Below are positions 16,969 to 41,660 of a stretch of DNA of 64,000 nt, in pieces (the stretch's first letter is position 1; every line of letters starts with the position of its first letter). The notes under the pieces are model-generated. The model was not told where the DNA came from and searched no databases. It saw only the letters and a list, made by a program, of their open reading frames with translations. The translations under genes and the position numbers were made by a program. The stretch covers positions 544,001 to 608,000 of the forward strand of contig OZ220691.1 of assembly GCA_965116475.1 (NCBI GenBank), given 5' to 3'. Source of the stretch: Gemmatimonadota bacterium. Lineage in GTDB: Bacteria; Gemmatimonadota; Gemmatimonadetes; Palauibacterales; Palauibacteraceae.

Positions 16969-17000
16969 CCCGGATCGAACCACTACACGTGCTTGAGCTC

Positions 17001-17057
17001 AGCCTGAAACGCCGACCTCGGCGAGGCCGGGTGTCAGGTGAATACCGTATCAGAACA
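17001..17057 (+). mobile_element. IS481-family right-end remnant, copy 1
   Basis: GCCTGAAACGCCGACCTCGGCGAGGCCGGGTGTCAGGTGAATACCGTATCAGAACA, homologous to copies 2-5. Confidence 0.8.
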
Positions 17058-17173
17058 TCCTCAGGCACTAATGCCGGCGCGACTGGCTGTCGAGCAATTG
17101 CCTTACATTTACATTCCGTTTCATAGTACGATCCCAGACCGTCCCCTGCCCACATCACCTCTCGATAGCAATC

Positions 17174-18043
17174 TCACTTCCGTTGTCTTGACACCTTTAT
17201 CGTTCCGTCCTTCCCCTTGCCTTCTTCTTCGTTTGTATCGGCAGTTTTCCTCTGAAACATCGTACGAAAGCCTGGACCACGCACCCAACTGAATGTGGCC
17301 CCTACGAGCGCACTCGCCACTGCAGCTACCGACGTCGCTAACAATATTGTGGAATCGAAGCTGTCTCTAGCAACTGCATCTCCTACTCCGCCTAGTTCGC
17401 TACTGACGATGGCAACGGTGCCGGCGACCATCGATACTAATCCCGCCGCTGTTACAAGTCGCAAACGCTGAATCCTCGCTCTACGTTCTTCGTATCTCTT
17501 TAGTTGGTTGACCCAGCGCTGGGCCGCAGCACGTTGCGTTTCCTTTCCAAGTATCAGCGCGATCGATTGGAGTCGGTCCGGAGGTGTGTAGTCGTACATA
17601 TCGATGTGAAACATGTTACTCGCCATATCCCAGCGCTTCTCTTCCGCATATGACCGCAGACTGTGTAGCGCCGAGATTACGGCCGTCTTTGGCAATCCGA
17701 GTTTCAGCTTTGCTAGCTCATCTCTAAGGATTAGCAGACTAACCTGAAACTCGGGATCGTCATCTCGATCTTGCTCCAACAGATCCACACATTTATTCAG
17801 GAGTCCATGGAGGCGCGTAAATCGGTGACTCTTAGAGATGTACCTCATCCACAGAATATATGATGCTCTTACAATTCCAACGATTGCAGTCGCTTCAATG
17901 GCAACAACAACGTTTACAGGACCGTCTCGCCATAAACCTAATGTTAGAATATATATTGACGCCAACAACCACGAGACGGCGCGTATGCCGCGGTCCAGTT
18001 TCTCGTCGATCAGACCCGAAAAGTAGTGTTCAAGGAGACTCAT
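17174..18043 (-). CDS. Hypothetical membrane protein (2 N-terminal and 2 C-terminal TM segments)
   Basis: Probable start MSLLEHY at 18043; AT-richer ORF directly downstream of the DUF3800 gene. Confidence 0.6.
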   Translation of the reverse strand: MSLLEHYFSGLIDEKLDRGIRAVSWLLASIYILTLGLWRDGPVNVVVAIEATAIVGIVRASYILWMRYISKSHRFTRLHGLLNKCVDLLEQDRDDDPEFQVSLLILRDELAKLKLGLPKTAVISALHSLRSYAEEKRWDMASNMFHIDMYDYTPPDRLQSIALILGKETQRAAAQRWVNQLKRYEERRARIQRLRLVTAAGLVSMVAGTVAIVSSELGGVGDAVARDSFDSTILLATSVAAVASALVGATFSWVRGPGFRTMFQRKTADTNEEEGKGKDGTIKVSRQRK

Positions 18044-18095
18044 CGGCAAACCTCGTCCGTGTGTGCTTTGAGGGAATCCGCATGCGATGTTGACT

Positions 18096-18962
18096 TCATA
18101 GTTTCCACTCAGGATGGCGAATTGAATCATAGAACTCCACGCATGGAGCCGCGGGAGGGCAAAGCCCCAGTCGCTGCCGCCCACCATCCAATAGGGACGC
18201 CAGCTCGTCATAATACTGCCCTTCGCCGTCCCACGCTTCCGTCGCGTCGGCGGCCAGCAACTCAAGGCGTCGACGATAGGCGTACGAGACCGTGTCTGCT
18301 ACCTGGATGATTGGAGAATGCTCAGATTTGATCGGGAACGGCGTGTTTATGATCTGATTGAAACGGTCGTTGGTGCTCCACTCCTTCCATACCCGTACGT
18401 TGCGGCCCTTACGTCGTCTTGTGATCCTTTTCTGGTACAGGCCGTCGAACCATGGATCGCCTGCGTAAATGGCGTCCGAGAACGCTGGCATAAGGCGTTT
18501 GTTGTCGTCCATCACGACCACGGTGTGCCCCTTGTTGCGAGTGAGGAGTTGCATCTTTTTTTGTACAAGAGACATGGTGAACATAGCAGCTAGGAGCCAA
18601 GGATCTTTGTTCACCGCGGGGAAGTCGGTCGAACAGTCAAGAGCTTCCCGCGTGGCGTCGAAAGACAGTCCAATCCCGAACACCTTGCCACCGTCCGCGA
18701 CCGCTAACCCGCAGATGTCCTGAAGGAATTCCTTGCGATCAACCGCAGATATTCTCCCCCAGGCGCCGCGGCCGTTGATGAACTGACTGGTCTTGAGTTC
18801 GCTCCGTCGATATCCTGGATACCGTGCCAGCATCTCCCGTATCATTTCGCGGACGATGTGCGTCCGGAGGCGCAATTTGGTAGCATCCACCATCACTCCA
18901 CACATGACGAACACGTCACTCTGATCGGTTTGGCCACTCTCATCGACATATAGGAACTTCAT
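18096..18962 (-). CDS. DUF3800 family protein
   Basis: MKFLYVDESG N-terminus, ELK, and SEHSPIIQVAD.VSY C-terminal motif. Confidence 0.85.
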   Translation of the reverse strand: MKFLYVDESGQTDQSDVFVMCGVMVDATKLRLRTHIVREMIREMLARYPGYRRSELKTSQFINGRGAWGRISAVDRKEFLQDICGLAVADGGKVFGIGLSFDATREALDCSTDFPAVNKDPWLLAAMFTMSLVQKKMQLLTRNKGHTVVVMDDNKRLMPAFSDAIYAGDPWFDGLYQKRITRRRKGRNVRVWKEWSTNDRFNQIINTPFPIKSEHSPIIQVADTVSYAYRRRLELLAADATEAWDGEGQYYDELASLLDGGRQRLGLCPPAAPCVEFYDSIRHPEWKL

Positions 18963-19121
18963 CCCCTCCGAACCCTCCTCACTCGGTAGCCAGTCCGATC
19001 TCGCACAGCGAGCGTGCCGGCAGTTCGAGAGGACTCGCTCCGCCCTTCACGCCGCGGGTCGTCGAGCGACCCCAAGCCTCGCCCTTCGCACCCACAGCAT
19101 GGCACCCCTGCGACTCGTCCT

Positions 19122-21212
19122 TCACCTTCCCTCCAGTTCCAGCGCTTGTCGCACCAGTCTCAACGCCGGCCCGACATCTTCTTTACGTCGCAGGTCGACC
19201 AACACACCTCCATCGTACCTCGATCCCACGAGGAATTTCCAACGCCTCGCATCCCGTGCGATCCCGTCATCATCTTCGATCTCGTTGACCTCTGGCGCCA
19301 TTAGCAGCAACAGCCTCCCCACTCGCGGCAGCACCTCCACAAAGAACTCTTGAGCATGATAGCTGATCGACTGACCCTCCGCGATTTCCACGATCACCGA
19401 ATCCAACTGTTTGATCTCCTCTCTCACCACACCAAGCAGTTCTCGAGCGTGGCTATTCATCTTTACCTTCTCGACGCTCCCTCGCTTCGACCGCCTGACG
19501 AGATCCTCATACTTCGCCTTCTCCAGCAGCTCCGGTGCCACCGCCAGGCGCGGCCAAATCGCCAAGGTGCGGCGACACAACGTCACACCCCGCTCTCGCA
19601 TTTGAGCCGCAGTCCACACGTTCTGCTCCCTCACAAACCGATTCAAACGGACCGCACTCTCTGCGAAGCCACCCTTGATTGTCTTTTTCTCCTCGAAGGA
19701 TCGATCCGACATCTCACTGTTATACCCAGTCAATGTCAGGTTCCCGAGCCGGTGCAGCCATTCCTCCTGTATCACCTTCCAATCTGATCCGAGCATCGCT
19801 TGCCAAGCAGTGGGGAGTCGCGCGTTCTGTGGCATAATATGTTCAATCGAATACTCACTCGTATCGGTTACTTCCTTGACATTATGATTCTCCAACCGCT
19901 CCAAGAGGACGCGACAGACTCTCTTCCCGTAGATGTTCTGTTCAAGCAGCTGCGTTTCGAACTCCTGATTTTGCGGAAATCTGTAGTTCTTTGACTGGCG
20001 TGCCAATCCGACCTTGAGGCTGTCCAATGGCCCCGTGTCCTGAATCTGGTGCGCCAATCTAGCGAAGGTACTCCAATAACCTCGGGTCTGGAGTCCGCAG
20101 ATTGCACGGCGAAACACATAGCTTTCCAGCAGATCCAAAGCTTCGATGAACTCCTCAGTTCGCAGTGTCTTGAGTCTCTCGTGACAATCGTAGAGGCGCA
20201 TTACCAGGATCGCAGGAACGTCAACCAACCTCCGGAGCCGACGCAGGGCTGGGCGGAGGTTTTTGTCGATAACGCCTCTACTGAGACTGAAAGCCGCGTA
20301 ATACCGGGCATATCGAAGCATCTCCACCAGCGCCTCCTCCAAGTCGCCAGCTTCTGCGCATAGCGTATCGAAGGCGCGGCGGAACGCATGATAGATCTCG
20401 TCGGCTCGACCCTGTTTCGCCGCCTCAGTCTTAAGGGCCACGTAGTCTCGGAAGAAGCTATTCGATCGGTCGCCATGCCCCTGAAATAGCAATTCGATCT
20501 TGTGCCAGTACTGTTCATACAGTTTCGTTTGCTCTCGCTCCGGGAGCCCCATGAGAACGAAGTTTCGTATTAGATCAGAGGGGCTGAGGTCGACGCCCGT
20601 TGAATTCAAGCTCTCGAATATCGCTTGCGGGTCATCATGCGAGTGCAATCGCACATCCACCACGTCAAGACGCTTGATGCCCCTATAGATTCTCTGTGGA
20701 TCCACTTCCGCCATGCGGCCCTGAAAGTAGCTGTAGTTTTCTCGAATGCGTGCGGACTCGGTTGAGGGGGGTTCGGTCTCATCAAGGATGGCGGTCAAGG
20801 TCTCGTGGTCGTGGCGCCGGAGGACGAGTTTTGGGCGGTCGGGATCCGGCAGTGTGGGGTTACGCAGGAACTGCCTGTCCAGATTATCTCCCGTCAGGTA
20901 AGCGTCCTCATACTCGGACCGCGTTACGAGGTCCCGGAGGGCAGCCGCCATAAGGACCACGGTGGTGAAGCGCTGCTGGCCGTCGATGAGCAGCCATCGT
21001 TGAAGGGACGCCTCGGCGTCGTGCGAAGGAGCGTATACGATCGAGCCAAGAAAATGCCGTGCGTCGGAGGGAGCGTCAGCAACGGCCAAGACATCCTGCC
21101 AGAGTTGTTCGCATTGCTCCGCAGTCCAGCTGTAGTCGCGCTGGAAGACGGGGATGAGGTATTGCCGCTGGCCGTCGATTAGCCTGATCAGAGGGTTATC
21201 AGTGGCTTGCAT
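19122..21212 (-). CDS. GmrSD-like type IV restriction protein (DUF262 + DUF1524 + probable DUF5655 tail)
   Basis: IPVFQRDYSW, HFLGSIV, LIDGQQRFTT, IFESLNSTG, SIEHIMPQ, HRLGNLTLTGYN. Confidence 0.9.
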   Translation of the reverse strand: MQATDNPLIRLIDGQRQYLIPVFQRDYSWTAEQCEQLWQDVLAVADAPSDARHFLGSIVYAPSHDAEASLQRWLLIDGQQRFTTVVLMAAALRDLVTRSEYEDAYLTGDNLDRQFLRNPTLPDPDRPKLVLRRHDHETLTAILDETEPPSTESARIRENYSYFQGRMAEVDPQRIYRGIKRLDVVDVRLHSHDDPQAIFESLNSTGVDLSPSDLIRNFVLMGLPEREQTKLYEQYWHKIELLFQGHGDRSNSFFRDYVALKTEAAKQGRADEIYHAFRRAFDTLCAEAGDLEEALVEMLRYARYYAAFSLSRGVIDKNLRPALRRLRRLVDVPAILVMRLYDCHERLKTLRTEEFIEALDLLESYVFRRAICGLQTRGYWSTFARLAHQIQDTGPLDSLKVGLARQSKNYRFPQNQEFETQLLEQNIYGKRVCRVLLERLENHNVKEVTDTSEYSIEHIMPQNARLPTAWQAMLGSDWKVIQEEWLHRLGNLTLTGYNSEMSDRSFEEKKTIKGGFAESAVRLNRFVREQNVWTAAQMRERGVTLCRRTLAIWPRLAVAPELLEKAKYEDLVRRSKRGSVEKVKMNSHARELLGVVREEIKQLDSVIVEIAEGQSISYHAQEFFVEVLPRVGRLLLLMAPEVNEIEDDDGIARDARRWKFLVGSRYDGGVLVDLRRKEDVGPALRLVRQALELEGR

Positions 21213-21267: not shown

Positions 21268-24200
21268 CTAGGTTGGGGTTCGCCGGTATGCGAGGGCAAA
21301 CACAGTATCGCCGAGCCAGCGCTTGAAGTCGGTGTTGTCTACGAACTGCTTGAACAGCTCGGTGTCGTCCTTCATGATGCTCGTCATCACGCGGGCGAGA
21401 GCGCGGTCGTGCTCGATTCGGGCGTTCTCGCGGTCCGAGTTCTCCCGGGCGTTCTTGAAGGCCGGGTCCTGCGCCACCTTGGCCGGGATCGTCTCGGTGA
21501 TCATCTCTTGGACGCGGTCATCGTGCTCCCACTCGATCGCGCCGAACAGGTCGTTGAACTCGTCGATGATCCGGGACAGGCGGTCGATCTCGGGGTCGGG
21601 GCGCCCTCCCCCGTTGACGCCGGGCACCGGCTCGATTTCGGCGTCCTCGTCGGGGAGGATGATCTTCTGCATCGCTTTCTTCTCGACGCGGTAGCTGTCC
21701 ATGTCGATCGTTTCGAGGATGCCCTTCGAGAGGTCCTCCTCCGCGGGCGCCGGCAGCTTCGGGATCAGGAAGTTCAGGAAGATCGAGCGCTCTTCCCAGC
21801 CGGGGTTGCTGTAGGGGAGGATCGAAGACAGGAAGCCGTAGGTCCGCACGAAGCCGCGGGCCTTGCTCTTGAACGCGACCTGTTCGTCTTCGTCCAGGTC
21901 CTCGATGTACACGGCGACGCACTGGTCCAGGATGGGATCGAGTTGGTCGCGGTCCGCTCCGTCCAGATAGCCCTTCACGAACGCCGTGACCTGCTCCAGC
22001 CGGTACACGTGGGCGGCGTCCAGATCCGCCTGGAGGTCGTGGAGCTTGTTGGGGTCCGTCTCGTCGGCCAGGACCGTCGCGCGGTAGTAGTCGGCGAAGG
22101 CCTCGGTGATCGTGTCCGTGTCGTTCAGGAAGTCCAGCACGAACACGTCGTGCTTCTTGGGGTGCGACCGGTTGAGTCGCGACAGGGTCTGGACCGCCTT
22201 GATCCCGGAGAGCGTCTTGTCGACGTACATGGTGTGGAGCAGCGGCTCGTCGTAGCCGGTCTGGAACTTGTCCGCGCAGATGAGGAAGCGGTACGGGTCC
22301 TCCTGGAAGGTCTCGGCGATCTTGCTCGGCGGGAAGCCGTTCAGCGTGGCCTCGCTCACCTTTTTCCCGCCGTACTCGTGTTCGCCCGAGAAGGCGACGA
22401 TCGCCCCGTAGCGGCTCTTCCGCTCCTCCAGGTAGTCGCGGATGGCGTGGAAATACTGGATCGCGCGCTCGATCCCGTTGGTCACGACCATCGCGCGCGC
22501 CTTGCCGTCGATCTTGTGCTGGGCCAGCACCTGTTCGTGGAAGTGGTCGACCATGATCTCGGCCTTGAGGCGGATCGCATGGTCGTGTCCCTCGACGTAG
22601 CGGCGGAGCTTCTTGCGGGCCTTCCGGACGTCGAACTCCGGGTCGTCCTCCACCGTCTTGGCGAGCTTGTAGTAGCTCTTGACCGGCGTGTAGTGCCGGA
22701 GCACGTCCAGGATGAAGCCCTCCTCGATCGCCTGCTTCATGCTGTAGGTGTGGAAGGCGCGGTGCCGGACGGTCCCGTCGCTCTGCGGATCCGGCTCGCC
22801 GAAGATCTCGAGCGTCTTGTTCTTCGGCGTGGCGGTGAAGGCGAAGTAGCTGGCGTTGGGGAGCAGCTTCCGCGACTCGATCAGACGGTTGATCTGGTCC
22901 TCGTACGTCTCCTCCTCCTCCGCTTCGCCCGCCTCGCCCAGCGCGCTCGCCATGGCTGCGCTGGTCTTCCCTCCCTGACTCGAGTGCGCCTCGTCGATGA
23001 TGATCGCGAAGGTGCGCCCGCGCTGCTCGTTGCCGATCTCGTCGAGAATGAAGGGGAACTTCTGGATCGTCGAGATGATGATCTTCTTCCCCTGCTCGAT
23101 GAACGTGCGCAGATCGCCCGACTTCTCGGCGTGCCCCACCGTCGAGCTCACCTGCGCGTACTTCCTGATCGTGTCGCGGATCTGCCGGTCGAGGATGCGG
23201 CGGTCGGTGACGACGATGATCGAGTCGAACACGGGCGCGCCGTCCTTCTCCAGCCGGATCATCTGGTGCGCCAGCCAGGCGATCGAGAAGCTCTTGCCGC
23301 TGCCGGCGGAGTGCTGGATCAGGTAGCGGCTTCCCGCCCCGTGCTCGCCGGCGTGGGCCAGCAGTTGGCGCACGACGTCGAGCTGGTGGTAGCGCGGCCA
23401 GATCTGGACTCGCTTCTTCCTCCCCGTCTTTCGGTCCTTTGACGCCACGACCTGCGCATAGTTTTCAAGCATGTTGGTCAGGCTCTCCCGGGCCAGCACC
23501 CGACGCCACAGGTAGTCCGTGGCGAGCCCGTGGGGGTTGGGAGGATTCCCCGCCCCGTCGTTCCAGCCGCGGTTGAACGACAGGAACCAGGAGGCCTTCC
23601 CCTTCAGGTGCGTGCAGAAGTGGATCTCGTTCTCGTCGACCGCGAAGTGCGCCAAGCAGCGCCCCAACCGGAACAGCGGCTCGCGCTGACTACGGTCCCG
23701 CCGGTACTGCCGCATCGCGTCGCTGACCGTTTGTTTCGTCAGGCGGTTCTTGAGTTCGAACGTGAAGACCGGGAGGCCGTTGATGAAGAGTCCGATGTCG
23801 AGAGACCGCTGGGTCTCGTCGCGGCTGTACCGAAGCTGGCGCGTGACCGTGAAGCGGTTCTGCTCGAAGCGCTGCCTGGCCTTGACGTTTTCGGCCGAGG
23901 GCGTGCCGTAGAAGAGGTCGAGGTCGTGCGGGCCGTGCTTGATGCCGTTGCGGAGGACATCGATGGTGCCGCGCTTGTTGATCTCGCCTTGGAGCCGGGC
24001 AAGGAACTTGCGGCGGGTGGGGCCGTCTTCCGTGAGACGGAGGGCGGCGGCGGCTTCAGGTTGCGTGATGTAGAGGAAAGTGCGGAGTTGAACGAGGTCG
24101 ACGCAGTACTCGCGGTTGTAGTCGTGATGGTTACCTTGAGACCAACCTACGCCGCCATGGCGTGCGGGCGGTTCTCGTACGGTCGGTCCTGACGGAGGAT

Positions 24201-25707: not shown

Positions 25708-25715
<8 letters not shown>
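24267..25715 (-). CDS. hsdS: Type I restriction-modification specificity subunit S
   Basis: Two DSGVEW.G.VPEHW repeats, two PP..EQ motifs, LI..(A/V)VTG conserved regions. Confidence 0.95.
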
Positions 25716-27849
<2,134 letters not shown>

Positions 27850-28078: not shown

Positions 28079-28121
28079 CTGAAGCGCTGACCTCGGCGTC
28101 AACCAATGCCGTACTTGTACA
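28079..28121 (+). mobile_element. IS481-family right-end remnant, copy 2 (internally shortened)
   Basis: CTGAAGCGCTGACCTCGGCG...CCGTACTTGTACA. Confidence 0.7.
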
Positions 28122-31385: not shown

Positions 31386-31389
31386 CTAG

Positions 31390-31512: not shown

Positions 31513-31525
31513 TATGTGGACGCCC

Positions 31526-32340: not shown

Positions 32341-32572
32341 GTGGATGCCTCCTCCCTCGGATGGTCGACTGAATCGCTTCAGCACCATCTTGGCACATCG
32401 CGATGCCGTCGGGAGAGGGCGTCCACTCCATCGTACTTGTACACCTTGTCCACTCACGGCACCGTCCGATATCATCTGGATGCCACGCACTGTATCAGTT
32501 TTTTGTAGTCAATCGCGTTCGATGTCGTTACACAACGGGATTCAAACGTTGGGAAAAGGAGCTTTGTGATCC

Positions 32573-33841: not shown

Positions 33842-35062
33842 ATGCCGCAACTGGCGTTTTTTCCATGGATCAACCTTGAGCGCGATATCGAGGTCGGCGC
33901 GTACTCGCTGACACCGTCGGTGCGGGGAGCCCGGCCGGGGTCGGATGTCGAGCGGTAATTCACGCTCGATTCCGTCCTTGCTCCATACCGTAACCGTCGG
34001 GACGAGCCGGTCCAGACTGCAGTGATCCTAGCGGCGCGTGACCGACGGCTGACGGACGATCTGTCCGGGAGGGATAGGGCTGATCTGTTTCTGTTTGCCG
34101 AGTTGTTCGCCTTCGCCGCCTTGTCAGCGCGTGAATTCTTTACTTGGGACTACTTCAACCGCGACCAACTACGGCTTGTGATCGAAGCGTTCAAGGAGCC
34201 GGGCGGCGGCGTGGTTGTGGAGACGCGCCGACGCGATGGACGCGTATCGTCGTGGATCGCCGGCGAGGACTATAAGGTCCAGATGCCGGCGCACGTAAGC
34301 TTGGAAGGCCAGGCAATCCAGCCCGACCGCGCCTTGCTCGACGCGCTGCTGGCGTTGCGAGAGCGAGAGCCGGAGGCGTGGACGGGACTGCACCGCGGTA
34401 TTGTCCTCTTCAACCAAGCCAATACCGACGCACTGGATATGTCACTGGAGATCGAACTGGTGCTTACGTACGCGGCGATGGAGCAAGTACTCGGAATCAG
34501 GTCGCGGAGGGACCAAAGGCGGTTCGCTACTAAGTTCGCCGAAGCGTGGTGGCCGAGCCGGGAGGTACCTCGGTGCGAATGGCGACCCCAGCCGAGGGGC
34601 AGGCCCTGGCCGAAAGGCAGCCTCCGGGCCTGCTGGGCTTCGGACCTGCAGGACTGTCGCGGGAACCTCGCGCACGGGCACAGGGAGGACCTAAAGCCGT
34701 CGCGGTGGACGGTTCGGCAACACCTGTTGCTGACCTCCTTCGCCATCCCCCGGCTCGTCAAGCAAATCCTGTCTCAACTGGACCTCTACGACCCGACGGA
34801 CGAGGACCACCGCGACATCAACGCCCTTGAACCTCTCCTAAACCTGCCGGACGTGTTCGCGCCGCCCGATTTCGACGACGACGAGCATGGCTTCTTGGGC
34901 GAAGATTATGCGTGGCTGCGGGTGCTGCGATGCGAGGGGGATCGCCGGGTCCGTCAATGGATCGAGCGGAGGGCGGAAGAGTTGCTTCTTCGACACGAAG
35001 ATGGTGACGATTCCCCGGCTGACGACCCACTGTTGAACGAGTCTGAGATACCCGAGCCGTGA
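33842..35062 (+). pseudogene. HEPN-like (RxxxxH) protein with one in-frame TAA at 33956-33958
   Basis: ATG at 33842 (MPQLAFFPW) is in frame with ORF 34022-35062; motif RGNLAHG follows a helical YAAMEQVL segment. Confidence 0.6.
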
Positions 35063-35232
35063 ACAGCGCGAGGCACGCCCTTCGTCGAGACGGTGCGCGT
35101 GAGCTGGAGCGACGTCAGAGGCGTGTGGACCCCGAGCGGCATCGATACACGTCCTGAGCGGCTCCGAAACCGTTCGGCGCGCGGCCGCATGGAGGTGCGA
35201 AGGCCATATCGGATCATCGACGCACCGATCCC

Positions 35233-35332
35233 GGGAGCCGGAAAAAGTCAACCGGAAAGGAGGTGAAGACCGCAGCCCGAAGCGGCTGACCTCGGCCGAG
35301 GCCGGGTGTCAGGTGAATACCGCACCTGTACA
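35233..35332 (+). mobile_element. IS481-family right-end remnant, copy 4
   Basis: GGAGCCGGAAAAAGTCAACCGGAAAGGAGGTGAAGACCGCAGCC...GCCGGGTGTCAGGTGAATACCGCACCTGTACA. Confidence 0.82.
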
Positions 35333-35465
35333 CTCTACACTCGGGGCCACCCGCAGCAGTGACCTTAGCGAGGGTACATATCATTATCATACCGACACAC
35401 CGAGTCCAATCTCCACCCAAGCATCCTCCAACTCACTGCCTCCATTGTCAGTGTAGTGGCACGAC

Positions 35466-36302
35466 TCATGCACCCTCGCTTCGATCTCTTCCCATCCGAC
35501 TCAGTATACCTCTTACAGTTATATCCATCTGTGAATCTTTCTTATAGTCCGCAGGAGCTACGAAGTCGACCCGTCGGTCGGCAATCAGATGATGGATTTT
35601 GTTGAGATCTTTATCACTACGCTCGGGATCGTATACTGCGATCGCCCAACCACCTTGTTGCGTCGTCATCTTCATCGCCGGAATGTCCGTCTCACCATCG
35701 CCTATAAAAATCATTCGCTTGAACGGAATGGGGCGTTCGCGGTCAGACATATAGCGGTTGATTTCTTTGTTGTCATAATGGTTTTCTATTCCCTTGTTGA
35801 TGCGGAACAGATATTGTGTTTTAGTCGTATAATTGATGGCTACGCCGGGCCATCGCACATGTGCTCCATCGTAGATGAACTTGGAAGCAAATATATATCT
35901 GAATTCATCGTGGATAGGACAACCTCTAATCATCTCATCAATACCTGACGATATGATATAGTGATCGACAAGCAGGCCACAGTTTCTACCATGTTCGTTT
36001 ATTCGCCTAAACCAACTTCCATCAACCAGACCCGGAAAGAGTTCAGCTTTGGCGCCGTGCTGTCGCAACATCTCTTCCGTAACGTCGACCTTTTGTTCTT
36101 TTGCTTTCGCGATCATCTCGCACATATATATGAGAATCTCGTCAACATTTGCTTGCTTTGCGATGGCTTTGACTCCATCCCAGAAAGGACCATTCTCCAT
36201 CTGTAGCACTTCGGGAATAAAGGTCTGTTCTTGTAGATTCCCTCTGGCGAGTGTACCGTCAAAATCATAGATAAGCGCAGCTCGTTGATAGGTTCCAATC
36301 AT
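35466..36302 (-). CDS. HAD-superfamily hydrolase
   Basis: YDFDGTL (motif I), YIISSG (II), TTKTQYLFRINKG (III), FIGDGETD (IV). Confidence 0.9.
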   Translation of the reverse strand: MIGTYQRAALIYDFDGTLARGNLQEQTFIPEVLQMENGPFWDGVKAIAKQANVDEILIYMCEMIAKAKEQKVDVTEEMLRQHGAKAELFPGLVDGSWFRRINEHGRNCGLLVDHYIISSGIDEMIRGCPIHDEFRYIFASKFIYDGAHVRWPGVAINYTTKTQYLFRINKGIENHYDNKEINRYMSDRERPIPFKRMIFIGDGETDIPAMKMTTQQGGWAIAVYDPERSDKDLNKIHHLIADRRVDFVAPADYKKDSQMDITVRGILSRMGRDRSEGA

Positions 36303-36387
36303 TGTGAGTCCCCTTTCTGTGTGTGGCAGTTTTTCTCGAAGAAGACGTACAAGTTCGGCAATCACCTGACGCCCGGTTTAGCCGACG

Positions 36388-36795
36388 TCAGAGTCGCGGA
36401 CTGCTGTCTTCATTTCGCCCTTGGTTGATTTCTCCCCAACCCTTCGGTTCCGGATCCCATCCTTGAGACCCTGATGCCATGTTGGCCGCGCCATGCTGGG
36501 ACCGCAGTGCAGACGGGATCCGTACAGTGGCAGTCCACTTGCGCCGCGTCGGTGGCCGCTTCCGGGGAATCCCGTACATGTCGACGTAGCTGTGTTTGCT
36601 CGGCCGATTCATCGGAACGGATTCATCAAGGGTGTGCAGGATGATGTGGTCGGCGGTCTCCTCGGGCCGACTCCAGAGTTGCGACGAACATCCCAGGTTG
36701 ATGCCCAGATCCTGTAGGATGCGGCTGGGCTGGTCGTCCTCGCCACCCTCCCGGCGCAGCGACGTGTACGGCTCGATGTAGCACAGCTCCTTCAT
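36388..36795 (-). CDS. Hypothetical protein (possibly a fragment)
   Basis: ORF co-oriented with its neighbours; no motif recognised. Confidence 0.3.
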   Translation of the reverse strand: MKELCYIEPYTSLRREGGEDDQPSRILQDLGINLGCSSQLWSRPEETADHIILHTLDESVPMNRPSKHSYVDMYGIPRKRPPTRRKWTATVRIPSALRSQHGAANMASGSQGWDPEPKGWGEINQGRNEDSSPRL

Positions 36796-36946
36796 TGGCC
36801 GATTCGCATCGATTGCCGTGCGGGGGAACAGGCACTGGGGGAAGCGGTTGCGTCCGCGGCAAGCTCCGGTTGCCGTTCCGGTTGAGCGCCGGGCAATCGA
36901 GGTTGGAGTTGGGTTCGAAGGATAGGATCAGCCGCGAGCGGTTCTT

Positions 36947-38527
36947 TCAGTCGCCCGGCCACTTCTGGGACCGACTCGAAACGGCGTCCACGGCTGCCGC
37001 GAGAGCATCGATGCCGCCCGGTGATGTCAGATCCTGAAGGGCCGTCAGCCCAATCGACTTCTGCGCGGGGAGATCGCGCTCGGCAACGACATAGAACTCC
37101 CAGCTCCCGGCGTCCCGTTGGTCGGCCGTGTCCCCGTCGGCTCCGTGCCACGCGAACACGTAGAGGTGCGCGTGGCGTCCGGGCTTCGCGACCCAGTCTC
37201 CTTCCTTGTCCCAATACCCCGTCCGGGGGGCGATATCGTATCGAGCGGGGCTCTGTCGCTCGGGGCTCTTCCAGGCCTGGGCTGCCGCGGACTGCTTGAC
37301 CTCGAGCCTGATTCCCGACTTGTGCTCGAAGTCCCACGAGTCCCATGGCGTCGTGCGCGCCCAGCCGCTGGCCTTGAGCGTGAGCGCCACGATCGCCTCG
37401 ACGTACTCGGAACGGTGGACGTTGTTCATCACCGGCTCCTTGTACGGCCGGATGACGTCCTCAAGCACGATGGCGTCCGACTGCCACGGCTCCGCCAGCT
37501 CGTCCAGGATCCCGACGATGCGCTCGAGCGCGGCCGCATACCGGTCGGGTCCCTTGCCTCCCTCCGGGATGACCGGAACCCACAACTGCTCGCCGACCTC
37601 GTGGAGTCTCGACCCCATGCGAGCCTCGAGTATTGCCTTGACACCGGGGTTCCAGCCCTGGCCGTCGGCGAAGACCCAATCCACACACACCATCCAGAGT
37701 GGCGTCGAGGCGAACTCCTGATACAGACGTGAGTTGATCCCCAACCAAACACCGAGCTTGTAGCGGCGATCGATGCGCGCGTATCGGCCGTAGCCGTAGC
37801 CACGCGGCGCTACCTGGTAGCTGCCACGACCCGACATGGTCCTGGTCGCCAGCCAGCCGGCCGCCTTCCCGATCTCGGTAACCGTATCGACCATCTCCTT
37901 TCCCGGGAGCGTAGCCTTGCTCTCCTTTGCCTCGGCGAACCGCACGAGTCCTCGGAGTTGCCGGAGGTCCGCCCGACCGAACTCGTCACCCTCCAGCGGT
38001 TCCTTCATGCTGTCCAACAAGGTGGTCCAGTCGATGATGCAGAGGTGCTTCTCCGTCCCATCGATCCGGACGCAGCGCGGATGCTCGAGACCGGTATACG
38101 GGAGTCCCTTCCTTTCGAGCCGGCCGAGCAGCCGCGGCCAGAGCTCCTCCACTCGCCGGGTTGGAACCAGGAACATGAGCACCGAGACACCGGCCGACGG
38201 CAACTGCTCCAGGTAGGAAACGGGCTGAGCCCGCATGAGCGGCGCATCGAACTTGGCCTCGATGAGGAACCGCTGCTCCCCGTTGTCTCCCTTCTGCAGC
38301 ACGTCCGGGCGCCCCAACTCCGGATCGGGAGTCTCCGTCTCGAAGTCCATGCCGGACAACCGCATGCCCGGGACGATTCGCGCCAGCAGCTCGTTCAACC
38401 CCTCTCGCGAGCCGGGATGGCTGTTGAGGATGTACTCGAGCACGGAGCAGGCGAGCACCTCCATCGGTGGATGAAACCGCCAGCTCAGGTGAGTCAGCAG
38501 CGGCTTTGACGTCTCAGTATCACTCAC
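36947..38527 (-). CDS. Protein with two PD-(D/E)XK-like nuclease domains
   Basis: N-terminal GRPDV...FLIEAKF..PL..AQP.SY; C-terminal WDF...SGIRLEVKQSAAAQAW...LYVFAWH. Confidence 0.7.
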   Translation of the reverse strand: MSDTETSKPLLTHLSWRFHPPMEVLACSVLEYILNSHPGSREGLNELLARIVPGMRLSGMDFETETPDPELGRPDVLQKGDNGEQRFLIEAKFDAPLMRAQPVSYLEQLPSAGVSVLMFLVPTRRVEELWPRLLGRLERKGLPYTGLEHPRCVRIDGTEKHLCIIDWTTLLDSMKEPLEGDEFGRADLRQLRGLVRFAEAKESKATLPGKEMVDTVTEIGKAAGWLATRTMSGRGSYQVAPRGYGYGRYARIDRRYKLGVWLGINSRLYQEFASTPLWMVCVDWVFADGQGWNPGVKAILEARMGSRLHEVGEQLWVPVIPEGGKGPDRYAAALERIVGILDELAEPWQSDAIVLEDVIRPYKEPVMNNVHRSEYVEAIVALTLKASGWARTTPWDSWDFEHKSGIRLEVKQSAAAQAWKSPERQSPARYDIAPRTGYWDKEGDWVAKPGRHAHLYVFAWHGADGDTADQRDAGSWEFYVVAERDLPAQKSIGLTALQDLTSPGGIDALAAAVDAVSSRSQKWPGD

Positions 38528-38719
38528 GAATCAGTTCCTCCACCTGACGACATCGGACCGCGTCGGACGAGCGGCACCAGAGTCGGGCCAGATGCGTTCG
38601 CCCGTCAAGGCTCCGACTCTCCCGAGTCCCGGTATCGATTGACCAACAACCATTTGTGGAACATCGTAGGGACTACGGTGAAGTTCTTTTCTCCCCGTTG
38701 GCGAGCACGAGGGGGTGAC

Positions 38720-38941
38720 ATGCGGAAGTGGTTCGGCGACATGATGGCCGACGACGAAGGACGGCCCTCATCCATGCGGGTCACGATGCTGATCGGCATG
38801 GTCGGCGGGATGGGGGTATTGGTCGGGACCGCGTTCGGCGTCGGGGACTGTTCGACAGACTACAGTACGACGCTCACGTTCTTGTTCGGAGGAATCCTCG
38901 GCGCGAAGGCGTGGCAGAAGCACTCCGAGACCAAGAGCTAG
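38720..38941 (+). CDS. Small 2-TM protein, holin-like
   Basis: ATG at 38720 after GGGGG; DDEGRPSSMRV, two hydrophobic segments, GAKAWQK tail. Confidence 0.55.
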   Translation: MRKWFGDMMADDEGRPSSMRVTMLIGMVGGMGVLVGTAFGVGDCSTDYSTTLTFLFGGILGAKAWQKHSETKS

Positions 38942-39024
38942 AGTTCGGCCTTCAGATCAGCATTTCCCCGAGGTCACCAGGTCGTACTTCGTCAATGGCT
39001 TCCCGCATATCGGCGTCTGAATCG

Positions 39025-39759
39025 ATGGTCACGCTTGGAGTCGACCTCGCCTCGCAGCCGAAGCGGACGGCCACCTGCCTGATTCGGTGGGATCGCGGGT
39101 CGGCGCGCGTGGAGACCCTCTCGCTGGGCGCGACGGACGCCGACCTGCATGAGTTGTTCAGGCGCGCGGACAGGATCGGCATCGACGCCCCCTTCGGCTG
39201 GCCCGCGCCGTTCACCCGAGCCGTCGCCGCCTATTCGACAGAGACGGTCTGGCCTTCCACCGCCGTTCCACAGCTTCGGTTTCGACGAACCGATGAGTTC
39301 GTGAGGGAGAGACTGGGTCGATGGCCGCTCAGCGTCTCGTCGGATCTGATCGCGGTGCCGGCGATGCGCGCCGTCCGCCTGCTCGCGGAGGCGTCGGCCG
39401 CCGGTGAAGCCATCGACCGGAGCGGCGGCGGCCGCTTCGTCGAGGTCTACCCCGCAGCCGCCCTCCACGTATGGGGCTTCCCCTCGCGCGGCTACAAGCG
39501 TGCCAAGGGGGCGACGGTTCGAGCCCGGCTCGTAAGCGATCTTGCCGAGCGAACCGTGGACTGGCTCACCCTCTCCGAGGAGGACCGGGCTCGGTGCACG
39601 GCTTCGGACGACATGCTCGATGCGCTCGTCGCGGCCCTGGTCGCCCGAGCGGCCACCACGGGCCGTTGCGAGCCGATTCCTCCCGAAGATCGCGAGCTGG
39701 CTCGGGAGGAGGGTTGGATCGCCCTACCGCAGTCCCGAAGTCTCAACCAACTCGCGTGA
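39025..39759 (+). CDS. DUF429 family protein (predicted RNase H-fold nuclease)
   Basis: LGVDLA, IGIDAPFGWP, FRRTD, VEVYPAAAL, DMLDALVAAL, EEGWI. Confidence 0.88.
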   Translation: MVTLGVDLASQPKRTATCLIRWDRGSARVETLSLGATDADLHELFRRADRIGIDAPFGWPAPFTRAVAAYSTETVWPSTAVPQLRFRRTDEFVRERLGRWPLSVSSDLIAVPAMRAVRLLAEASAAGEAIDRSGGGRFVEVYPAAALHVWGFPSRGYKRAKGATVRARLVSDLAERTVDWLTLSEEDRARCTASDDMLDALVAALVARAATTGRCEPIPPEDRELAREEGWIALPQSRSLNQLA

Positions 39760-39804
39760 ATCGTGGCGATCTCGCGGATCGACGACGTCCCCCGCGCCTC
39801 AGCA

Positions 39805-41364
39805 TTAGCCCCGTTCGTCAGCCTTCGCTTGCCCCCACTTGCGTTCGACTTCATCAATGACGGGGATCGCATTGACCGCTAGGTCCATGATGCTATCGAC
39901 GTAGTAGTCCGTGATGGGCCCATGGCCATCCTTCCATTCTCGGTACAAGTCCGCGAGGAGGGAATCCCATCTGGTCATTTCGTCGCGAGCTTGGCGGACA
40001 TAGGGCCACCAGAGCAGGGTTCCACCGGGATCGAGGTCACGCCGAAGCCTGTCCTCCAATGCTCCACGCCGCTCTCTATCCGCAGCGGTCATGTTGTTCT
40101 TGTCTAGCGGATGCAGCACACCCCACCTCCATTGATTCGGTCCCGGCCCAACCGATTGCAGTACAACACCCGTGCACCCCTCAAGTGGAGGATGGTCCTT
40201 CTTCTTCCTTTCCCACGGAGGCCACCCCACGCGGTACAGCCAGAGGAAGTTCGACCATTTTGCTTCTCCGCCGTACCTGCACTCGACACGAAGGTCCGGA
40301 GCGAGATCGGGCAGTTGCTCCTGTACCCGCCGGTGGACCTCAGCGCGCAGGTGTTCCAGAAAGCCCCCGCACAGCTCCGCCTTCAGCTTCGGCCAGACAT
40401 CCGAGACGGTCTGCGCGGTTGAAAGCTGATTCGGGTTGGCGAAGAGGTAATCCTGGATTGCCCGCGTGTCGCTGTCCGTCGCCATCGAATGTCCTCCAAA
40501 TTGTTGTCGGCAGAATGCTTCGGCATCCCGCAGGAACCACCGGAGCCGGTCGGCGTGGCACTGGGTCCGACAGGCGGCGAACCAATCGGCCAGGGAGAAC
40601 CGAGTCCGGAAATCGGCGAACACATCGTCCGCGAGAGCTTGCTCATCGCTGGGCGCGTCGTCCGCCTCGCCCCCAGCCGCCTCGGTGTACTCGGCGGCCC
40701 GATCGGCGCTCCCAGGGACCCCCCAATAGGGCATGACGGCGAGCCGCCCCCGCCAACGAGGGAGTTCCTCCTTCGGCAGGCTATGAGGCGTCGGTCCTTC
40801 CCCCCGCGGCGAAAGATAGATGAGCAGAAAACGCTCCTCGTACTTCCCCTTGAGGTACTTCAGGTAGTCCCGCACCTGGTGCCGCTGATCATCCGCGAAG
40901 GGCTTGTTCTCGATGGCCAGGCACCACGGCCCGGCGCCGGTCTCGACGTCCACCGTGATGTCGATGCGACGCCTCTTGGGGATCACGCGCTCCAACTGCA
41001 CACGTACCGGCTTCGAGAAGTCCGGCCTCGGCTTTGATGTGCCGCCTTCCGCGAACAACTGTTCCAGGAGGATCCCGAGCAGGGACGTGCCCTGGCCGTG
41101 TCGGGCCGCGGGGTTGAGCAGGTCGCCGATGATTCTCGAAAGCAGCACTTCGCTCGGGCGATCCTCGCCCATGTAGTCGAACACGTTGAAGCGATGCGCG
41201 AGATGCCGGTCAAGCTCCCGCTCCAGCTTCCGGGCCGCCTCCAGCACGGGATTCAGCTCGACGAAGAGCTGCTCAAGCCGGCGTCGGTCGGCTTGCCGTG
41301 CCTCATCCATCCGCGCCTCCAGCCCCGCGAAGAATGCAGGGATCCCCGCAGCGCGCTCCGTCAC
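39805..41364 (-). CDS. PD-(D/E)XK nuclease superfamily protein (PDDEXK_4-like)
   Basis: FNVF, E..LSRIIGDLLNP..RHGQG, RRIDI, AIENK..A.DQ..QV.DY, LIYLSP; GTG start with GGGAG. Confidence 0.85.
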   Translation of the reverse strand: MTERAAGIPAFFAGLEARMDEARQADRRRLEQLFVELNPVLEAARKLERELDRHLAHRFNVFDYMGEDRPSEVLLSRIIGDLLNPAARHGQGTSLLGILLEQLFAEGGTSKPRPDFSKPVRVQLERVIPKRRRIDITVDVETGAGPWCLAIENKPFADDQRHQVRDYLKYLKGKYEERFLLIYLSPRGEGPTPHSLPKEELPRWRGRLAVMPYWGVPGSADRAAEYTEAAGGEADDAPSDEQALADDVFADFRTRFSLADWFAACRTQCHADRLRWFLRDAEAFCRQQFGGHSMATDSDTRAIQDYLFANPNQLSTAQTVSDVWPKLKAELCGGFLEHLRAEVHRRVQEQLPDLAPDLRVECRYGGEAKWSNFLWLYRVGWPPWERKKKDHPPLEGCTGVVLQSVGPGPNQWRWGVLHPLDKNNMTAADRERRGALEDRLRRDLDPGGTLLWWPYVRQARDEMTRWDSLLADLYREWKDGHGPITDYYVDSIMDLAVNAIPVIDEVERKWGQAKADERG

Positions 41365-41451
41365 GCAACATCTCCCTGCGTCGTCTCGACCATGCTGGCG
41401 AACTTCACGCCTCCCTGCCCTCCGCCTCCCCCAGGAGGAAAGCTCGCAGTA

Positions 41452-41660
41452 GGTGTTCCCGTTCTTCGATGAGCACGGGGTGAAGGTCGAGACGGTCCTG
41501 AGCGACAACGGGCGCGAGTACTGCGGCCGCGAGGATCGGCACCCCTGCGAGCAGAAGGGGAGCCGGAAGCCGAGGAGCCGGAAGAAGTCAACGGGAAAGA
41601 GGCTGAAGACGGCGGCCTGAAGCGCTGATCTCGGCGAGGCCGGGTGTCAGGTGATTCACA
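41452..41660 (+). mobile_element. IS481-family remnant, copy 5 (integrase-core fragment joined to right end)
   Basis: VFPFFDEHGVKVETVLSDNGREYCGREDRHP jumps to KPRSRKKSTGKRLKTAA*, then GCCGGGTGTCAGGTGATT. Confidence 0.85.

What the first reader, a model, noticed from the sequence alone, without database searches (positions are those of the whole stretch)
17001..41660. Five co-oriented IS481 right ends bracket and partition a defence island like cassette boundaries
Seen: homologous tails (consensus ...GCCTGAAGCGCTGACCTCGGCGAGGCCGGGTGTCAGGTGAATACCGTACTTGTACA) occur at 17001-17057, 28079-28121, 31390-31512+32434-32443, 35233-35332 and 41452-41660, all on the + strand. Only right ends survive, with different amounts of transposase tail; I found no matching left end or intact transposase. 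Copies 1-4 are each followed by a visibly AT-richer block (membrane protein+DUF3800, FRG+DUF262, an unknown pair, HAD), and copies 1 and 5 mark the island limits. Inference: an integron-like accretion array in which IS481 ends act as capture or recombination sites (one-ended transposition, or recombination between ends), or are kept as promoters.
Basis: partly seen in the sequence, partly recalled or inferred. Interest (0 to 1): 0.78.

Follow-up and report, generated by a model that had tools for sequence, protein, structure and literature searches.

The report
Decayed IS481 ends marking island junctions
Worn-down right-hand ends of one jumping gene sit at the seams of a bacterial anti-phage gene island, marking where DNA has been swapped rather than forming an integron-like capture machine.

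Summary
The repeats are real. They are relics of a 1,237-bp IS481-family insertion sequence ("IS-A"), which I reconstructed from relatives. A marginal seventh abuts copy 1. The genome has no IS-A left end and no intact IS-A transposase. The island is rich in defence genes, and GC drops sharply just beyond the termini of copies 1-4 and of the inverted copy.

Across 36 genomes of the genus, right ends outnumber left ends about 3:1. DNA beyond right termini is AT-richer than DNA beyond left termini (0.59 vs 0.65). One junction, type I RM hsdM plus copy 2, is shared by six species, and homology stops at or within about 10 nt of the IS terminus in all six.

The integron-like reading fails. No integrase lies in the window, and the AT-rich blocks after copies 1, 2 and 4 occur in 0 of 35 relatives. 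Neighbouring ends are not significantly co-oriented genus-wide (13 same, 9 opposite), and there is no promoter signal. The DNA that stays with an end lies on its inner side.

Best reading: IS relics are junction scars and portable homology in an old, mosaic defence island. The right-end polarity is unexplained.

The parts
16998..17057 (+). c1: IS-A right-end relic, IS positions ~1181-1237. Its terminal variant (...CCGTATCAGAACA) mirrors the left IR.
   Evidence: E=1e-15
17059..17113 (+). c1b: marginal, degenerate second right end abutting c1.
   Evidence: nhmmer E=0.01; weak
17114..20700 (.). AT-rich block 1 (GC 0.46-0.58): 363-aa ORF, DUF3800, and most of a GmrSD/type IV-like gene (19122-21212, minus strand). 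Unique to this genome.
   Evidence: 0 of 35 relatives
21268..27849 (-). Type I RM genes hsdR-hsdS-hsdM. hsdR and hsdM are genus-conserved. Together with the ~230-bp upstream region and c2 they form a module conserved from the hsdR stop to the IS terminus.
28079..28121 (+). c2: short IS-A right-end relic (positions ~1184-1237, with an internal ~14-nt gap). The same relic sits at the same junction in five other species.
   Evidence: (E=1.4e-3)
28122..30459 (.). AT-rich block 2: FRG (PDC-S15) and DUF262/NsnA-like genes, plus 376 bp. Unique to this genome.
   Evidence: 0 of 35
30460..31390 (-). IS-B: a second IS481-family element, broken by a 213-bp internal deletion and flanked by a GCTAG duplication. 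It inserted at the inner edge of c3.
31391..31514 (+). c3 part 1: IS-A positions ~1103-1227.
31515..32433 (-). Deleted IS110/IS1111-family element inserted in the IS-A right IR between CCGTA and TACTTGTACA. The full 1.4-kb copy sits at the same site in G017.
32434..32443 (+). c3 part 2: the last 10 nt of the IS-A right IR.
32444..33650 (.). AT-rich block 3 (GC 0.45-0.50): 170-aa and 215-aa ORFs with no family hit.
   Evidence: no relative matched this part
34022..35062 (+). 346-aa gene with no family hit and genus-typical GC. Homologues in G017, G010 and G027. It lies ~6 kb beyond the hsdM relic in both G000 and G017.
35164..35332 (+). c4: IS-A positions 1061-1237 with a complete terminus. A weak extra piece (positions 425-496) lies at 35093-35163.
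   Evidence: E=7e-21
35333..36346 (-). AT-rich block 4 (GC 0.42-0.51): HAD-like PDC-S34 gene, enclosed by two right termini that face each other.
   Evidence: 0 of 35
   Evidence: E=5e-14
36517..41458 (.). GC-richer segment between the outward-facing ends c6 and c5: 135/184-aa ORFs, a 526-aa ORF, DUF429 (PDC-S44) and PDDEXK_4 (PDC-S26). These genes belong to the genus gene pool.
   Evidence: homologues in 17 of 35 relatives
41459..41663 (+). c5: IS-A positions 780-873 joined to 1120-~1230 (246-bp internal deletion). The outermost nucleotides are not recognisable.

Best explanation
The repeats are decayed right-end relics of one 1,237-bp IS481-family insertion sequence (IS-A). IS-A is common in this genus but has no functional copy in this genome. 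The relics lie at the seams of an old, mosaic defence island.

The island has two kinds of DNA. The first is a 'framework' of genus-pool modules with GC 0.62-0.67: the type I RM, a 346-aa gene, and the 526-aa/DUF429/PDDEXK_4 group. The second is lineage-specific AT-rich defence genes with GC 0.42-0.58.

Shown:
- the identity of the element;
- the absence of left ends in this genome;
- the sharp GC steps at the termini;
- the age of the hsdM|c2 junction, which six species share;
- the stop in homology between species at or within about 10 nt of the IS terminus;
- later insertion of other elements into or next to IS-A relics (IS-B at the inner edge of c3, an IS110-family element in the right IR, and IS-A itself in relatives).

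Inferred: the relics act passively, as portable homology and junction scars. DNA is exchanged by recombination that uses an IS-A end on one side. This could be homologous replacement between framework anchors, or Campbell-type integration of IS-A-bearing circles followed by deletion of the new copy's left part. Either route makes turnover end at the terminus. Direct-repeat recombination would also tend to give co-oriented tails.

It is not a dedicated capture machine. There is no recombinase, and 'end + following block' is not a mobile cassette.
For: IS identity:
- The full copies in G032 and G016 are 1,237 and 1,235 bp, with ~26-nt IRs that start TGT.
- One copy has a 7-bp target duplication.
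- The intact 369-aa transposase in G014 scores 251 bits against NF033577 'IS481 family transposase' (cut-off 224).

Window map.

GC and gene content:
- GC steps at the termini.
- Defence content.
- The AT-rich blocks are unique to this genome: 0 of 35 relatives in each.
- The framework segments are genus-pool: hsdR and hsdM in G025, G020 and G003, plus the 5' half of hsdM in G017 and G027; the 346-aa gene in 3 of 35; the c6-c5 interior in 17 of 35, partly in syntenic islands.

The hsdM|relic junction:
- All 15 pairs among six genomes are 84-89% identical on the inner side, and none is homologous beyond the terminus.
- The alignment stops at ...TTGTACA.
- G027 carries a different outermost IR variant on the same relic, as expected after exchange within the relic.
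- In both G000 and G017 a conserved 346-aa gene lies ~6 kb beyond the relic, with unrelated DNA between. This is the signature of replacement between anchors.

Nesting:
- IS-B with a GCTAG duplication.
- The IS110-family insert at the same IR position in G000, G017 and G020.
- IS-A inside an older relic in G016.
Against: - No recombination event was observed directly. The genomes are one per species, so recent gains and losses cannot be seen.
- Short relics (43-60 nt, 85-95% identical) are poor substrates for homologous recombination.
- The model does not by itself explain why right ends outnumber left ends 92 to 31.
- It also does not explain why DNA beyond right termini is AT-richer than DNA beyond left termini (0.594 vs 0.654 after removing related flanks, p=5e-7).
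- Co-orientation, which Campbell-type accretion predicts, is not significant genus-wide (13 same, 9 opposite).
- Other junctions show the opposite pattern, with the outer flank shared and the inner flank different (L045/L053, L093/L110, L113/L118).
Confidence: 0.5

Rival explanations
1. Ordinary IS decay in a sink, with no role for the ends. IS-A inserted repeatedly into dispensable island DNA and eroded. The orientation, the right-end bias and the junction coincidences come from chance, insertion preference and shared ancestry.
For: - The orientation count of 5:1 is not significant, and genus-wide the split is 13 same to 9 opposite.
- Relic identities to the reference range from 69% to 90%, so the copies are old and independent.
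- The island also holds IS-B and an IS110-family relic.
- No target duplications lie at unit borders, and there is no recombinase.
Against: - The right:left ratio is 92:31 with equal-length queries.
- The GC polarity holds after removing related flanks: 49 of 71 right-flank clusters but only 3 of 25 left-flank clusters fall below 0.62 GC.
- Six species keep the hsdM relic, and homology ends at or within about 10 nt of its terminus in all of them. Random erosion should blur that border.
Confidence: 0.2
2. Polar capture at the right end. The right terminus, alone or with a partner end, is joined by the transposase to incoming AT-rich DNA (one-ended attack or cointegrate formation, ISEcp1- or IS26-like in outcome). 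Foreign defence genes would then accumulate just beyond right termini.
For: - DNA beyond right termini is AT-rich in 83 termini of relatives, and on average AT-richer than DNA beyond left termini.
- The first genes there are often defence-type: GmrSD_N x3, DUF6119 x2, patatin x2, AIPR, DUF5677, TIR, NYN x2 and others among 73 ORFs.
- Genes beyond left termini include a relaxase, an integrase, IstB and an IS110 transposase among 26 ORFs.
- The blocks beyond the termini are lineage-specific.
- The right IR stays well conserved in old relics.
Against: - No intact IS-A transposase exists in this genome.
- No target duplications were found.
- No block was found twice with its end.
- Before IS-B arrived, c3 had AT-rich DNA on both sides.
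- I know of no precedent for one-ended events in IS481 elements, and one text search found none.
Confidence: 0.12
3. The mobile units are the GC-richer segments. They are bounded by outward-facing right IRs (IRR/IRR pseudo-compound elements, or one-ended products that carry inner-side DNA) and inserted into a pre-existing AT-rich island, cutting it into pieces.
For: - Five divergent pairs of right termini enclose GC 0.645-0.686, while seven convergent pairs enclose GC 0.47-0.565 over 0.8-3.1 kb.
- A ~72-bp IR-palindrome-IR mini-element exists, and a G020 copy has its left end replaced by an inverted right IR.
- The inner side is GC-richer than the outer side in 32 of 36 relics.
- The hsdRSM + relic module has sharp limits.
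- All AT-rich pieces in the window end in intergenic DNA and could once have been one compact island.
Against: - No target duplications flank c6...c5 or the other candidate units.
- The candidate left IR for the c4 unit is not significant (E=0.63).
- The cargo genes of c6-c5 occur in relatives inside syntenic islands rather than as the same bounded unit.
- One full copy (G032) has GC-rich flanks of 0.67 and 0.73, so a preference for AT-rich targets is unproven.
Confidence: 0.12
4. The right ends are kept by selection because they supply outward promoters or terminators for the adjacent foreign genes.
For: c2 is followed by the co-directional FRG gene, c3 by the 170/215-aa pair, and c6 by the HAD-like gene. 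The terminal TTGTAC resembles a -35 box (my reading).
Against: - c1, c4 and c5 face convergent genes.
- Genus-wide the first ORF beyond the terminus is co-directional in 35 cases and opposed in 46 (crude ORF calls).
- The good -35/-10 pair upstream of FRG lies in the flank, not in the IS (sequence, my reading).
Confidence: 0.03
5. A true integron-like site-specific cassette system that uses the IS end as its att site.
For: Only the visual resemblance: repeated, mostly co-oriented short elements between gene blocks.
Against: - No tyrosine recombinase lies in the window; the six in the genome sit far away.
- No recombinase domain turned up among the 27 ORFs I scanned between 13155 and 45509.
- The repeats vary in length and are 62-93% alike.
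- The genes lie on both strands.
- The blocks do not recur.
Confidence: 0.01

Closest known systems
IS481-family insertion sequences
   Same: DDE transposase with HTH + rve + rve_3 domains. NF033577 is met above its cut-off in the intact relative. The element is ~1.24 kb, has terminal IRs starting TGT, and makes a short target duplication. The neighbouring IS-B shows the CTAG-containing duplication that I recall as typical of IS481 itself.
   Different: IS-A's one readable duplication is 7 bp and lacks CTAG. Nearly all copies in 36 genomes are broken. Right ends outnumber left ends about 3:1, with a GC polarity that I have not seen described. Two text searches found nothing relevant among the papers listed.
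IS26 arrays / pseudo-compound transposons and translocatable units
   Same: Gene segments interspersed with directly oriented copies of one IS, built by recombination at the IS (abstract of PMC7885326 seen in the listing).
   Different: IS26 arrays hold complete IS26 copies of the IS6 family. Here only truncated tails of an IS481 element remain, one of them inverted, and no transposase is present.
ISEcp1-type one-ended mobilisation of DNA next to the right end
   Same: Foreign genes lie just beyond the right IR. The concept is recalled; only search listings were seen.
   Different: There is no intact IS upstream of the blocks, no alternative right IR with a target duplication, and no recurrence of IS + block.
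Integron
   Same: Short repeats separating gene blocks that include defence genes.
   Different: No IntI, no attC-like structure and no common promoter logic.
IS4321/IS5075 (IS1111 group) targeting the terminal IRs of Tn21-family transposons
   Same: The IS110-family element in copy 3 has sub-terminal inverted repeats. It sits at one fixed position of the IS-A right IR in G000, G017 and G020. The precedent appears as a title in the reference list of PMC11187229 (passage seen).
   Different: The target here is the IR of an IS481-family IS in a different host group. The G000 copy is a 919-bp deletion derivative.
Defence islands / variable hotspots between conserved anchors
   Same: Type I RM, GmrSD-like and PDC candidate genes cluster together. 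Unrelated content sits between conserved anchors in two species.
   Different: One anchor edge is defined to within about 10 nt by an IS relic shared by six species.

Membership tests
IS481 family (for IS-A) | IS481-type DDE transposase | tested here: met
   The G014 369-aa ORF scores 251 bits against NF033577 (cut-off 224), with rve + rve_3 domains. The window itself holds only a 21.9-bit fragment.
IS481 family (for IS-A) | Terminal inverted repeats beginning TGT, and a length near 1-1.3 kb (feature list recalled) | tested here: met
   1,235 and 1,237 bp; left IR TGTTCTGATACGGTAATCACCTGACA and its mirrored right IR
IS481 family (for IS-A) | Short direct target duplication | tested here: met
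   7-bp ATCAGTG flanks the G016 copy. The G032 copy has only an imperfect repeat.
IS481 family (for IS-A) | Single transposase ORF without programmed frameshift | tested here: inconclusive
   One intact single ORF (G014). The other near-full copies carry a stop or a frameshift.
Integron | IntI tyrosine recombinase next to the array | tested here: not met
   Six Phage_integrase hits in the genome, none in 544001-608000. None among the 27 ORFs scanned.
Integron | Cassettes that end in attC sites and share one orientation and promoter | tested here: not met
   The repeats are IS tails of 43-205 nt. The genes after them lie on both strands.
IS26-like array / translocatable units | Complete, directly oriented IS copies between the segments | tested here: not met
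   No complete IS-A copy and no left end in the genome
ISEcp1-like one-ended mobilisation | The same IS + downstream block at different loci, flanked by a target duplication | tested here: not met
   Blocks found in 0 of 35 relatives. No duplications.
Compound / IR-bounded cargo element (c6...c5) | Outward-facing terminal IRs | tested here: met
   c6 (-) and c5 (+) face outward around 4.9 kb of GC 0.646. The c5 terminus is degenerate.
Compound / IR-bounded cargo element (c6...c5) | Target duplication, and recurrence as one unit | tested here: not met
   The flanks differ. The cargo genes occur in 17 of 35 relatives, but dispersed in syntenic islands.
IS110/IS1111 family (insert in copy 3) | DEDD IS110-type transposase, sub-terminal IRs, and one fixed target site | tested here: met
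   NF033542 at 318 bits (cut-off 140) for the G017 copy. The G000 relic hits only Transposase_20 weakly. The junctions CCGTA|TGTGGACG and CCATCG|TACTTGTACA are the same in G000 and G017.

The most novel reading that the evidence does not exclude
The right terminus of this IS481-family element is a polar, integrase-free recruitment site. Foreign AT-rich defence genes would be joined specifically to right IRs, singly or between two facing right IRs, by a transposase- or homology-dependent process. Long-dead relics such as the hsdM-linked one would keep serving as cassette docks across species.
Probability: 0.15. Interest if true: 0.75.

Novelty: new variant of a known kind. Interest (0 to 1): 0.4.

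Why it matters
If IS relics only mark old seams, this is routine island archaeology. Two genus-wide regularities go beyond that. Right ends are three times as common as left ends. Right ends also abut AT-rich, defence-type, lineage-specific DNA, while left ends abut GC-typical DNA that includes mobile-element backbone genes. One 54-nt relic has bounded a variable slot in six species.

Together these suggest that dead IS ends can structure how defence islands gain and lose genes. The idea is testable with strain-level genomes and simple transposition assays. The window also documents an RNA-guided IS110-family element whose natural target is the IR of another IS.

Tried and rejected
- Empty-site test. 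Left-flank (TonB receptor) homology ends at ~15900 in eight relatives, and nothing beyond matches the island. The right flank is itself rearranged in relatives. No clean empty site exists.
- tRNA or RNA-gene anchor. No tRNA and no Rfam hit in the window.
- Target duplications for units ending at c1-c4. No convincing 6-8-mers.
- A seventh, inverted end at 33740-33800 that would bound a c4 unit. nhmmer E=0.63, rejected.
- My first guess for the IS-B border (30093) was wrong. Comparison with full copies puts it at 30460.
- Same cargo between facing ends in G000 and G025. The HAD-like and DUF5677 proteins are unrelated.
- Promoter retention. Rejected on ORF orientation, 35 vs 46.
- Co-orientation as a rule. 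Rejected, 13 vs 9.
- Literature. 'IS481' + 'one-ended transposition' gave one unrelated paper. 'IS481 family' with target site, inverted repeat and solo gave nothing relevant among the 10 listed of 437.
- Earlier-findings look-ups by place and by sequence returned nothing.
- Supplements of papers were not consulted.

Full report
**What is there**

The window is G000:C1:544001-608000 of a single-contig, 3.62-Mb genome with about 70% GC.

Copy 5 translates to a piece of an rve-type transposase (...FFDEHGVKVETVLSDNGREYCGREDRHP...) joined directly to a lysine/arginine-rich C-terminus and a stop codon.

DNA and protein searches of 36 genomes of the genus found longer copies. Aligning four of them defined the whole element, which I call IS-A:
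- It is 1,237 bp in G032 and 1,235 bp in G016.
- Its ~26-nt inverted repeats begin TGT.
- One copy is flanked by a 7-bp duplication, ATCAGTG.
- The only intact transposase, a 369-aa ORF in G014, scores 251 bits against NCBIfam NF033577 'IS481 family transposase' (cut-off 224) and carries rve and rve_3 domains.

**Map of the window**

I mapped IS-A pieces with blastn using the full element and with an nhmmer profile built from 43 right ends of relatives. In IS coordinates:

| Copy | Window position | Strand | IS positions | Note |
|---|---|---|---|---|
| c1 | 16998-17057 | + | ~1181-1237 | |
| c2 | 28079-28121 | + | ~1184-1237 | internal gap; E=1.4e-3 only |
| c3 | 31391-31514 and 32434-32443 | + | ~1103-1237 | split by an insert |
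| c4 | 35164-35332 | + | 1061-1237 | |
| c5 | 41459-41663 | + | 780-873 joined to 1120-~1230 | outermost bases not recognisable |

A marginal further right end abuts c1 at 17059-17113 (E=0.01). A left-end profile hits only the shared IR inside these right ends.

Elsewhere in the genome there are only two more IS-A pieces, at C1:722136 and C1:1090627, and no left end.

Three other elements are relevant:
- A different IS481-family element (IS-B, 36% aa identity) lies at 30460-31390 on the minus strand. It has a 213-bp internal deletion and a GCTAG duplication.
- The insert that splits c3 is a 919-bp remnant of an IS110-family element.
- One intact but unrelated IS481-family transposase lies at C1:1509151-1510023.

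**The island**

GC falls from about 0.70 to 0.42-0.66 between roughly 16 and 41.7 kb. At 300-nt resolution it drops sharply just beyond the termini of c1, c2, c3, c4 and c6.

The AT-rich pieces are 17114-~20700, 28122-30459, 32444-~33650 and 35333-36346. Pfam and PADLOC identify the following:
- DUF3800;
- a GmrSD/type IV-like enzyme;
- a complete type I RM system;
- FRG (PDC-S15) plus a DUF262/NsnA-like protein;
- a HAD-like PDC-S34;
- DUF429 (PDC-S44);
- PDDEXK_4 (PDC-S26).

There is no tRNA and no Rfam family in the window. None of the genome's six tyrosine recombinases lies in the window.

**Do blocks travel with the ends?**

The blocks that follow c1, c2 and c4 were found in 0 of 35 other genomes of the genus. 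Of the block after c3, only the GC-typical 346-aa gene has homologues, in 3 of 35.

The GC-richer segments, by contrast, belong to the genus gene pool. The interior between c6 and c5 matches 17 of 35 genomes, often in islands that also hold the PhoD and RM neighbours (for example G020 at 2.23-2.28 Mb and G017:C4 at 25-75 kb).

The most informative case is c2:
- An all-against-all comparison of 1-kb flanks of 89 right ends shows that the inner flank of c2 (the hsdM start and its upstream region) is shared by six genomes at 84-89% identity.
- None of the 15 pairs shares anything beyond the terminus.
- The alignment stops at ...TTGTACA.
- Longer fetches show a module conserved from the hsdR stop codon to the IS terminus in G000, G025, G020 and G003. 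G017 and G027 keep the 5' half of hsdM plus the relic.
- On the same relic, G027 carries the alternative outermost IR variant, and G020 carries the end of the IS110-family element at the usual position.
- In both G000 and G017 a conserved 346-aa gene lies about 6 kb beyond the relic, with unrelated DNA in between.

What stays with an end is therefore the DNA on its inner side. What changes is the DNA beyond the terminus. This is the opposite of an 'end + following block' cassette, but it does make the terminus a real boundary of exchange.

**Genus-wide regularities**

1. *Right ends are over-represented.* With the whole IS as query, 150 matches were listed and 10 more were not. I dropped 10 matches of an unrelated class (query positions 1080/1094-1132) that recurs once per genome. 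Of the remaining 140, 73 contain the right terminus, 22 contain the left terminus, and 2 contain both. With equal-length 100-nt queries, the left end gave 31 matches, at least two of which are right IRs hit through the shared IR. The right end gave 92.

2. *GC polarity.* I fetched nearly all termini.
   - The 1 kb beyond 83 right termini averages 0.592 GC; beyond 28 left termini it averages 0.653 (Mann-Whitney p=1e-7). For the first 300 nt the values are 0.581 and 0.660.
   - After collapsing homologous flanks: 71 vs 25 clusters, 0.594 vs 0.654, p=5e-7. Below 0.62 GC are 49 of 71 right-flank clusters against 3 of 25 left-flank clusters.
   - For truncated right relics the inner side is GC-richer than the outer side in 32 of 36 (those loci were partly chosen as clusters). 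For left relics the corresponding count is 8 of 22.

3. *Pairs of right termini.* Seven convergent pairs enclose 0.8-3.1 kb of GC 0.47-0.565. Five divergent pairs enclose GC 0.645-0.686.

4. *Gene content of the flanks.*
   - The first ORF beyond right termini (73 scanned) includes GmrSD_N x3, DUF6119 x2, patatin x2, AIPR + Mrr_cat, DUF5677, TIR, NYN x2, ThiF, AAA_21, a DNA methylase and others. Forty have no hit.
   - Beyond left termini (26 scanned) there are a relaxase, a phage integrase, IstB, an IS110 transposase, DUF499, DctM and a BNR protein. Eighteen have no hit.

5. *Orientation of neighbours.* Among neighbouring right ends within 40 kb, 13 are in the same orientation and 9 in the opposite (11 and 7 without G000).

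6. *Direction of downstream genes.* The first ORF beyond the terminus reads away from the IS in 35 cases and towards it in 46.

All these counts treat species genomes as independent, which they are not entirely.

**Nesting**

The IS-A right end is itself a frequent landing site:
- An IS110-family element (356-aa transposase, NF033542 at 318 bits) sits between CCGTA and TACTTGTACA in G017. The same junctions occur in G000 c3, and a trace occurs in two G020 relics.
- A full IS-A in G016 sits inside the IR of an older relic.
- The G014 copy is split at positions 1181-1187 by a 1.3-kb element (my reading of the printed flanks).
- Tandem duplicates of the last 13-15 nt occur in G012, G008 and G025.
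- Miniature derivatives exist: a ~72-bp IR-palindrome-IR element in G024, and the first 14 nt of the left IR fused to positions 1169-1237 in G020 and G008.

These derivatives may explain part of the right-end excess.

**Interpretation**

The descriptive core is secure. These are decayed IS481-family right ends at the seams of an old, mosaic defence island.

For mechanism, I favour a passive role, at 0.5. The relics are junction scars and portable homology, so replacement or integration events end at the terminus. This accounts for the hsdM junction, the anchor-to-anchor replacement seen with G017, the variant terminus in G027, and (through direct-repeat recombination) some co-orientation.

It does not explain the 3:1 excess or the GC polarity. 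Those features keep three rivals alive:
- pure decay (0.2);
- polar capture at right termini (0.12);
- IRR-bounded units that insert into AT-rich DNA (0.12).

Promoter retention (0.03) and an integron-like system (0.01) are effectively excluded.

**Comparison with known systems**

- IS26 arrays (abstract of PMC7885326 in the listing) and ISEcp1-type mobilisation (listings only; the concept is recalled) resemble the outcome. Both fail on defining features, as set out in the membership table.
- The IS110-family insert parallels IS4321/IS5075, which target Tn21-family IRs (title seen in the reference list of PMC11187229).
- Two earlier notes of this scan describe IS481-type transposase-less defence carriers and inward-facing IS3 termini in other genomes. 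They are unchecked leads.
- I found no description of a right-end excess or flank polarity for IS481 elements in two text searches. That is a narrow search and no proof of novelty.

**Verdict**

In kind, this is a new variant of known IS-driven island mosaicism. Interest is 0.4.

Noticed in passing
window 31515-32433; L060 4428-5832 (G017); L043/L115 (G020): An IS110/IS1111-family, RNA-guided-type element with sub-terminal inverted repeats sits at one fixed position of the IS-A right IR (between CCGTA and TACTTGTACA) in three genomes. It is a natural case of an IS that targets the IR of another IS.
   Followed up: partly
L055 (G024:C7), L042/L047 (G020/G008), L021, L047, L050: Miniature IS-A derivatives exist: a ~72-bp IR-palindrome-IR element, and the first 14 nt of the left IR fused to the last 69 nt. 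Tandem duplicates of the last 13-15 nt of the right IR occur at several loci.
   Followed up: partly
relatives: L050, L124, L027, L120, L107, L055; window 35164-36516: Single AT-rich, defence-type genes (HAD-like, DUF5677, TIR/SEFIR, NYN, DUF2806, patatin) are enclosed by two IS-A right termini that face each other, 0.8-3.1 kb apart. There are seven cases. The origin is unexplained.
   Followed up: partly
window 16766-16961 and 13000-13127: A 196-bp stretch (the end of an 84-aa ORF with no family hit) and a 127-bp stretch are each 81-96% identical to sequences in many genus genomes. There the two lie a few kb apart, sometimes in several copies. Their nature is unknown.
   Followed up: no
window 4248, 5241, 6266, 48345, 54498: The 20-nt palindrome GACGTTCCCGCGGGAACGTC (up to 1 mismatch) occurs five times against 0.01 expected. 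A 74-nt inverted repeat (5226-5299 / 48306-48379) includes it. It may be a regulator site or a REP-like element.
   Followed up: partly
window 9558-10178: The 72-bp tandem repeat (8 copies) is the leucine-rich-repeat region of an 821-aa Big_2 + LRR protein on the minus strand (8384-10849). Ordinary.
   Followed up: yes
window 15872-16696 (-): An ion-transport (Ion_trans) gene lies between the conserved TonB-receptor flank and c1. It is 91% identical to a gene in G013 that sits in a different context, so the variable region starts before c1.
   Followed up: partly
L050 (G025:C1:4044000-4063999): G025 carries a second, partial hsdM copy (529-aa ORF). It is closer to the G000 hsdM (92%) than the full G025 copy is (87%), and it lies next to an IS110-family piece. 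This hints at exchange of RM modules between species.
   Followed up: no
G000:C1:1509151-1510989 (outside the window): The genome's only intact IS481-family transposase (319-aa ORF, 302 bits) lies next to a second, weaker copy. It is unrelated to IS-A at the DNA level.
   Followed up: no
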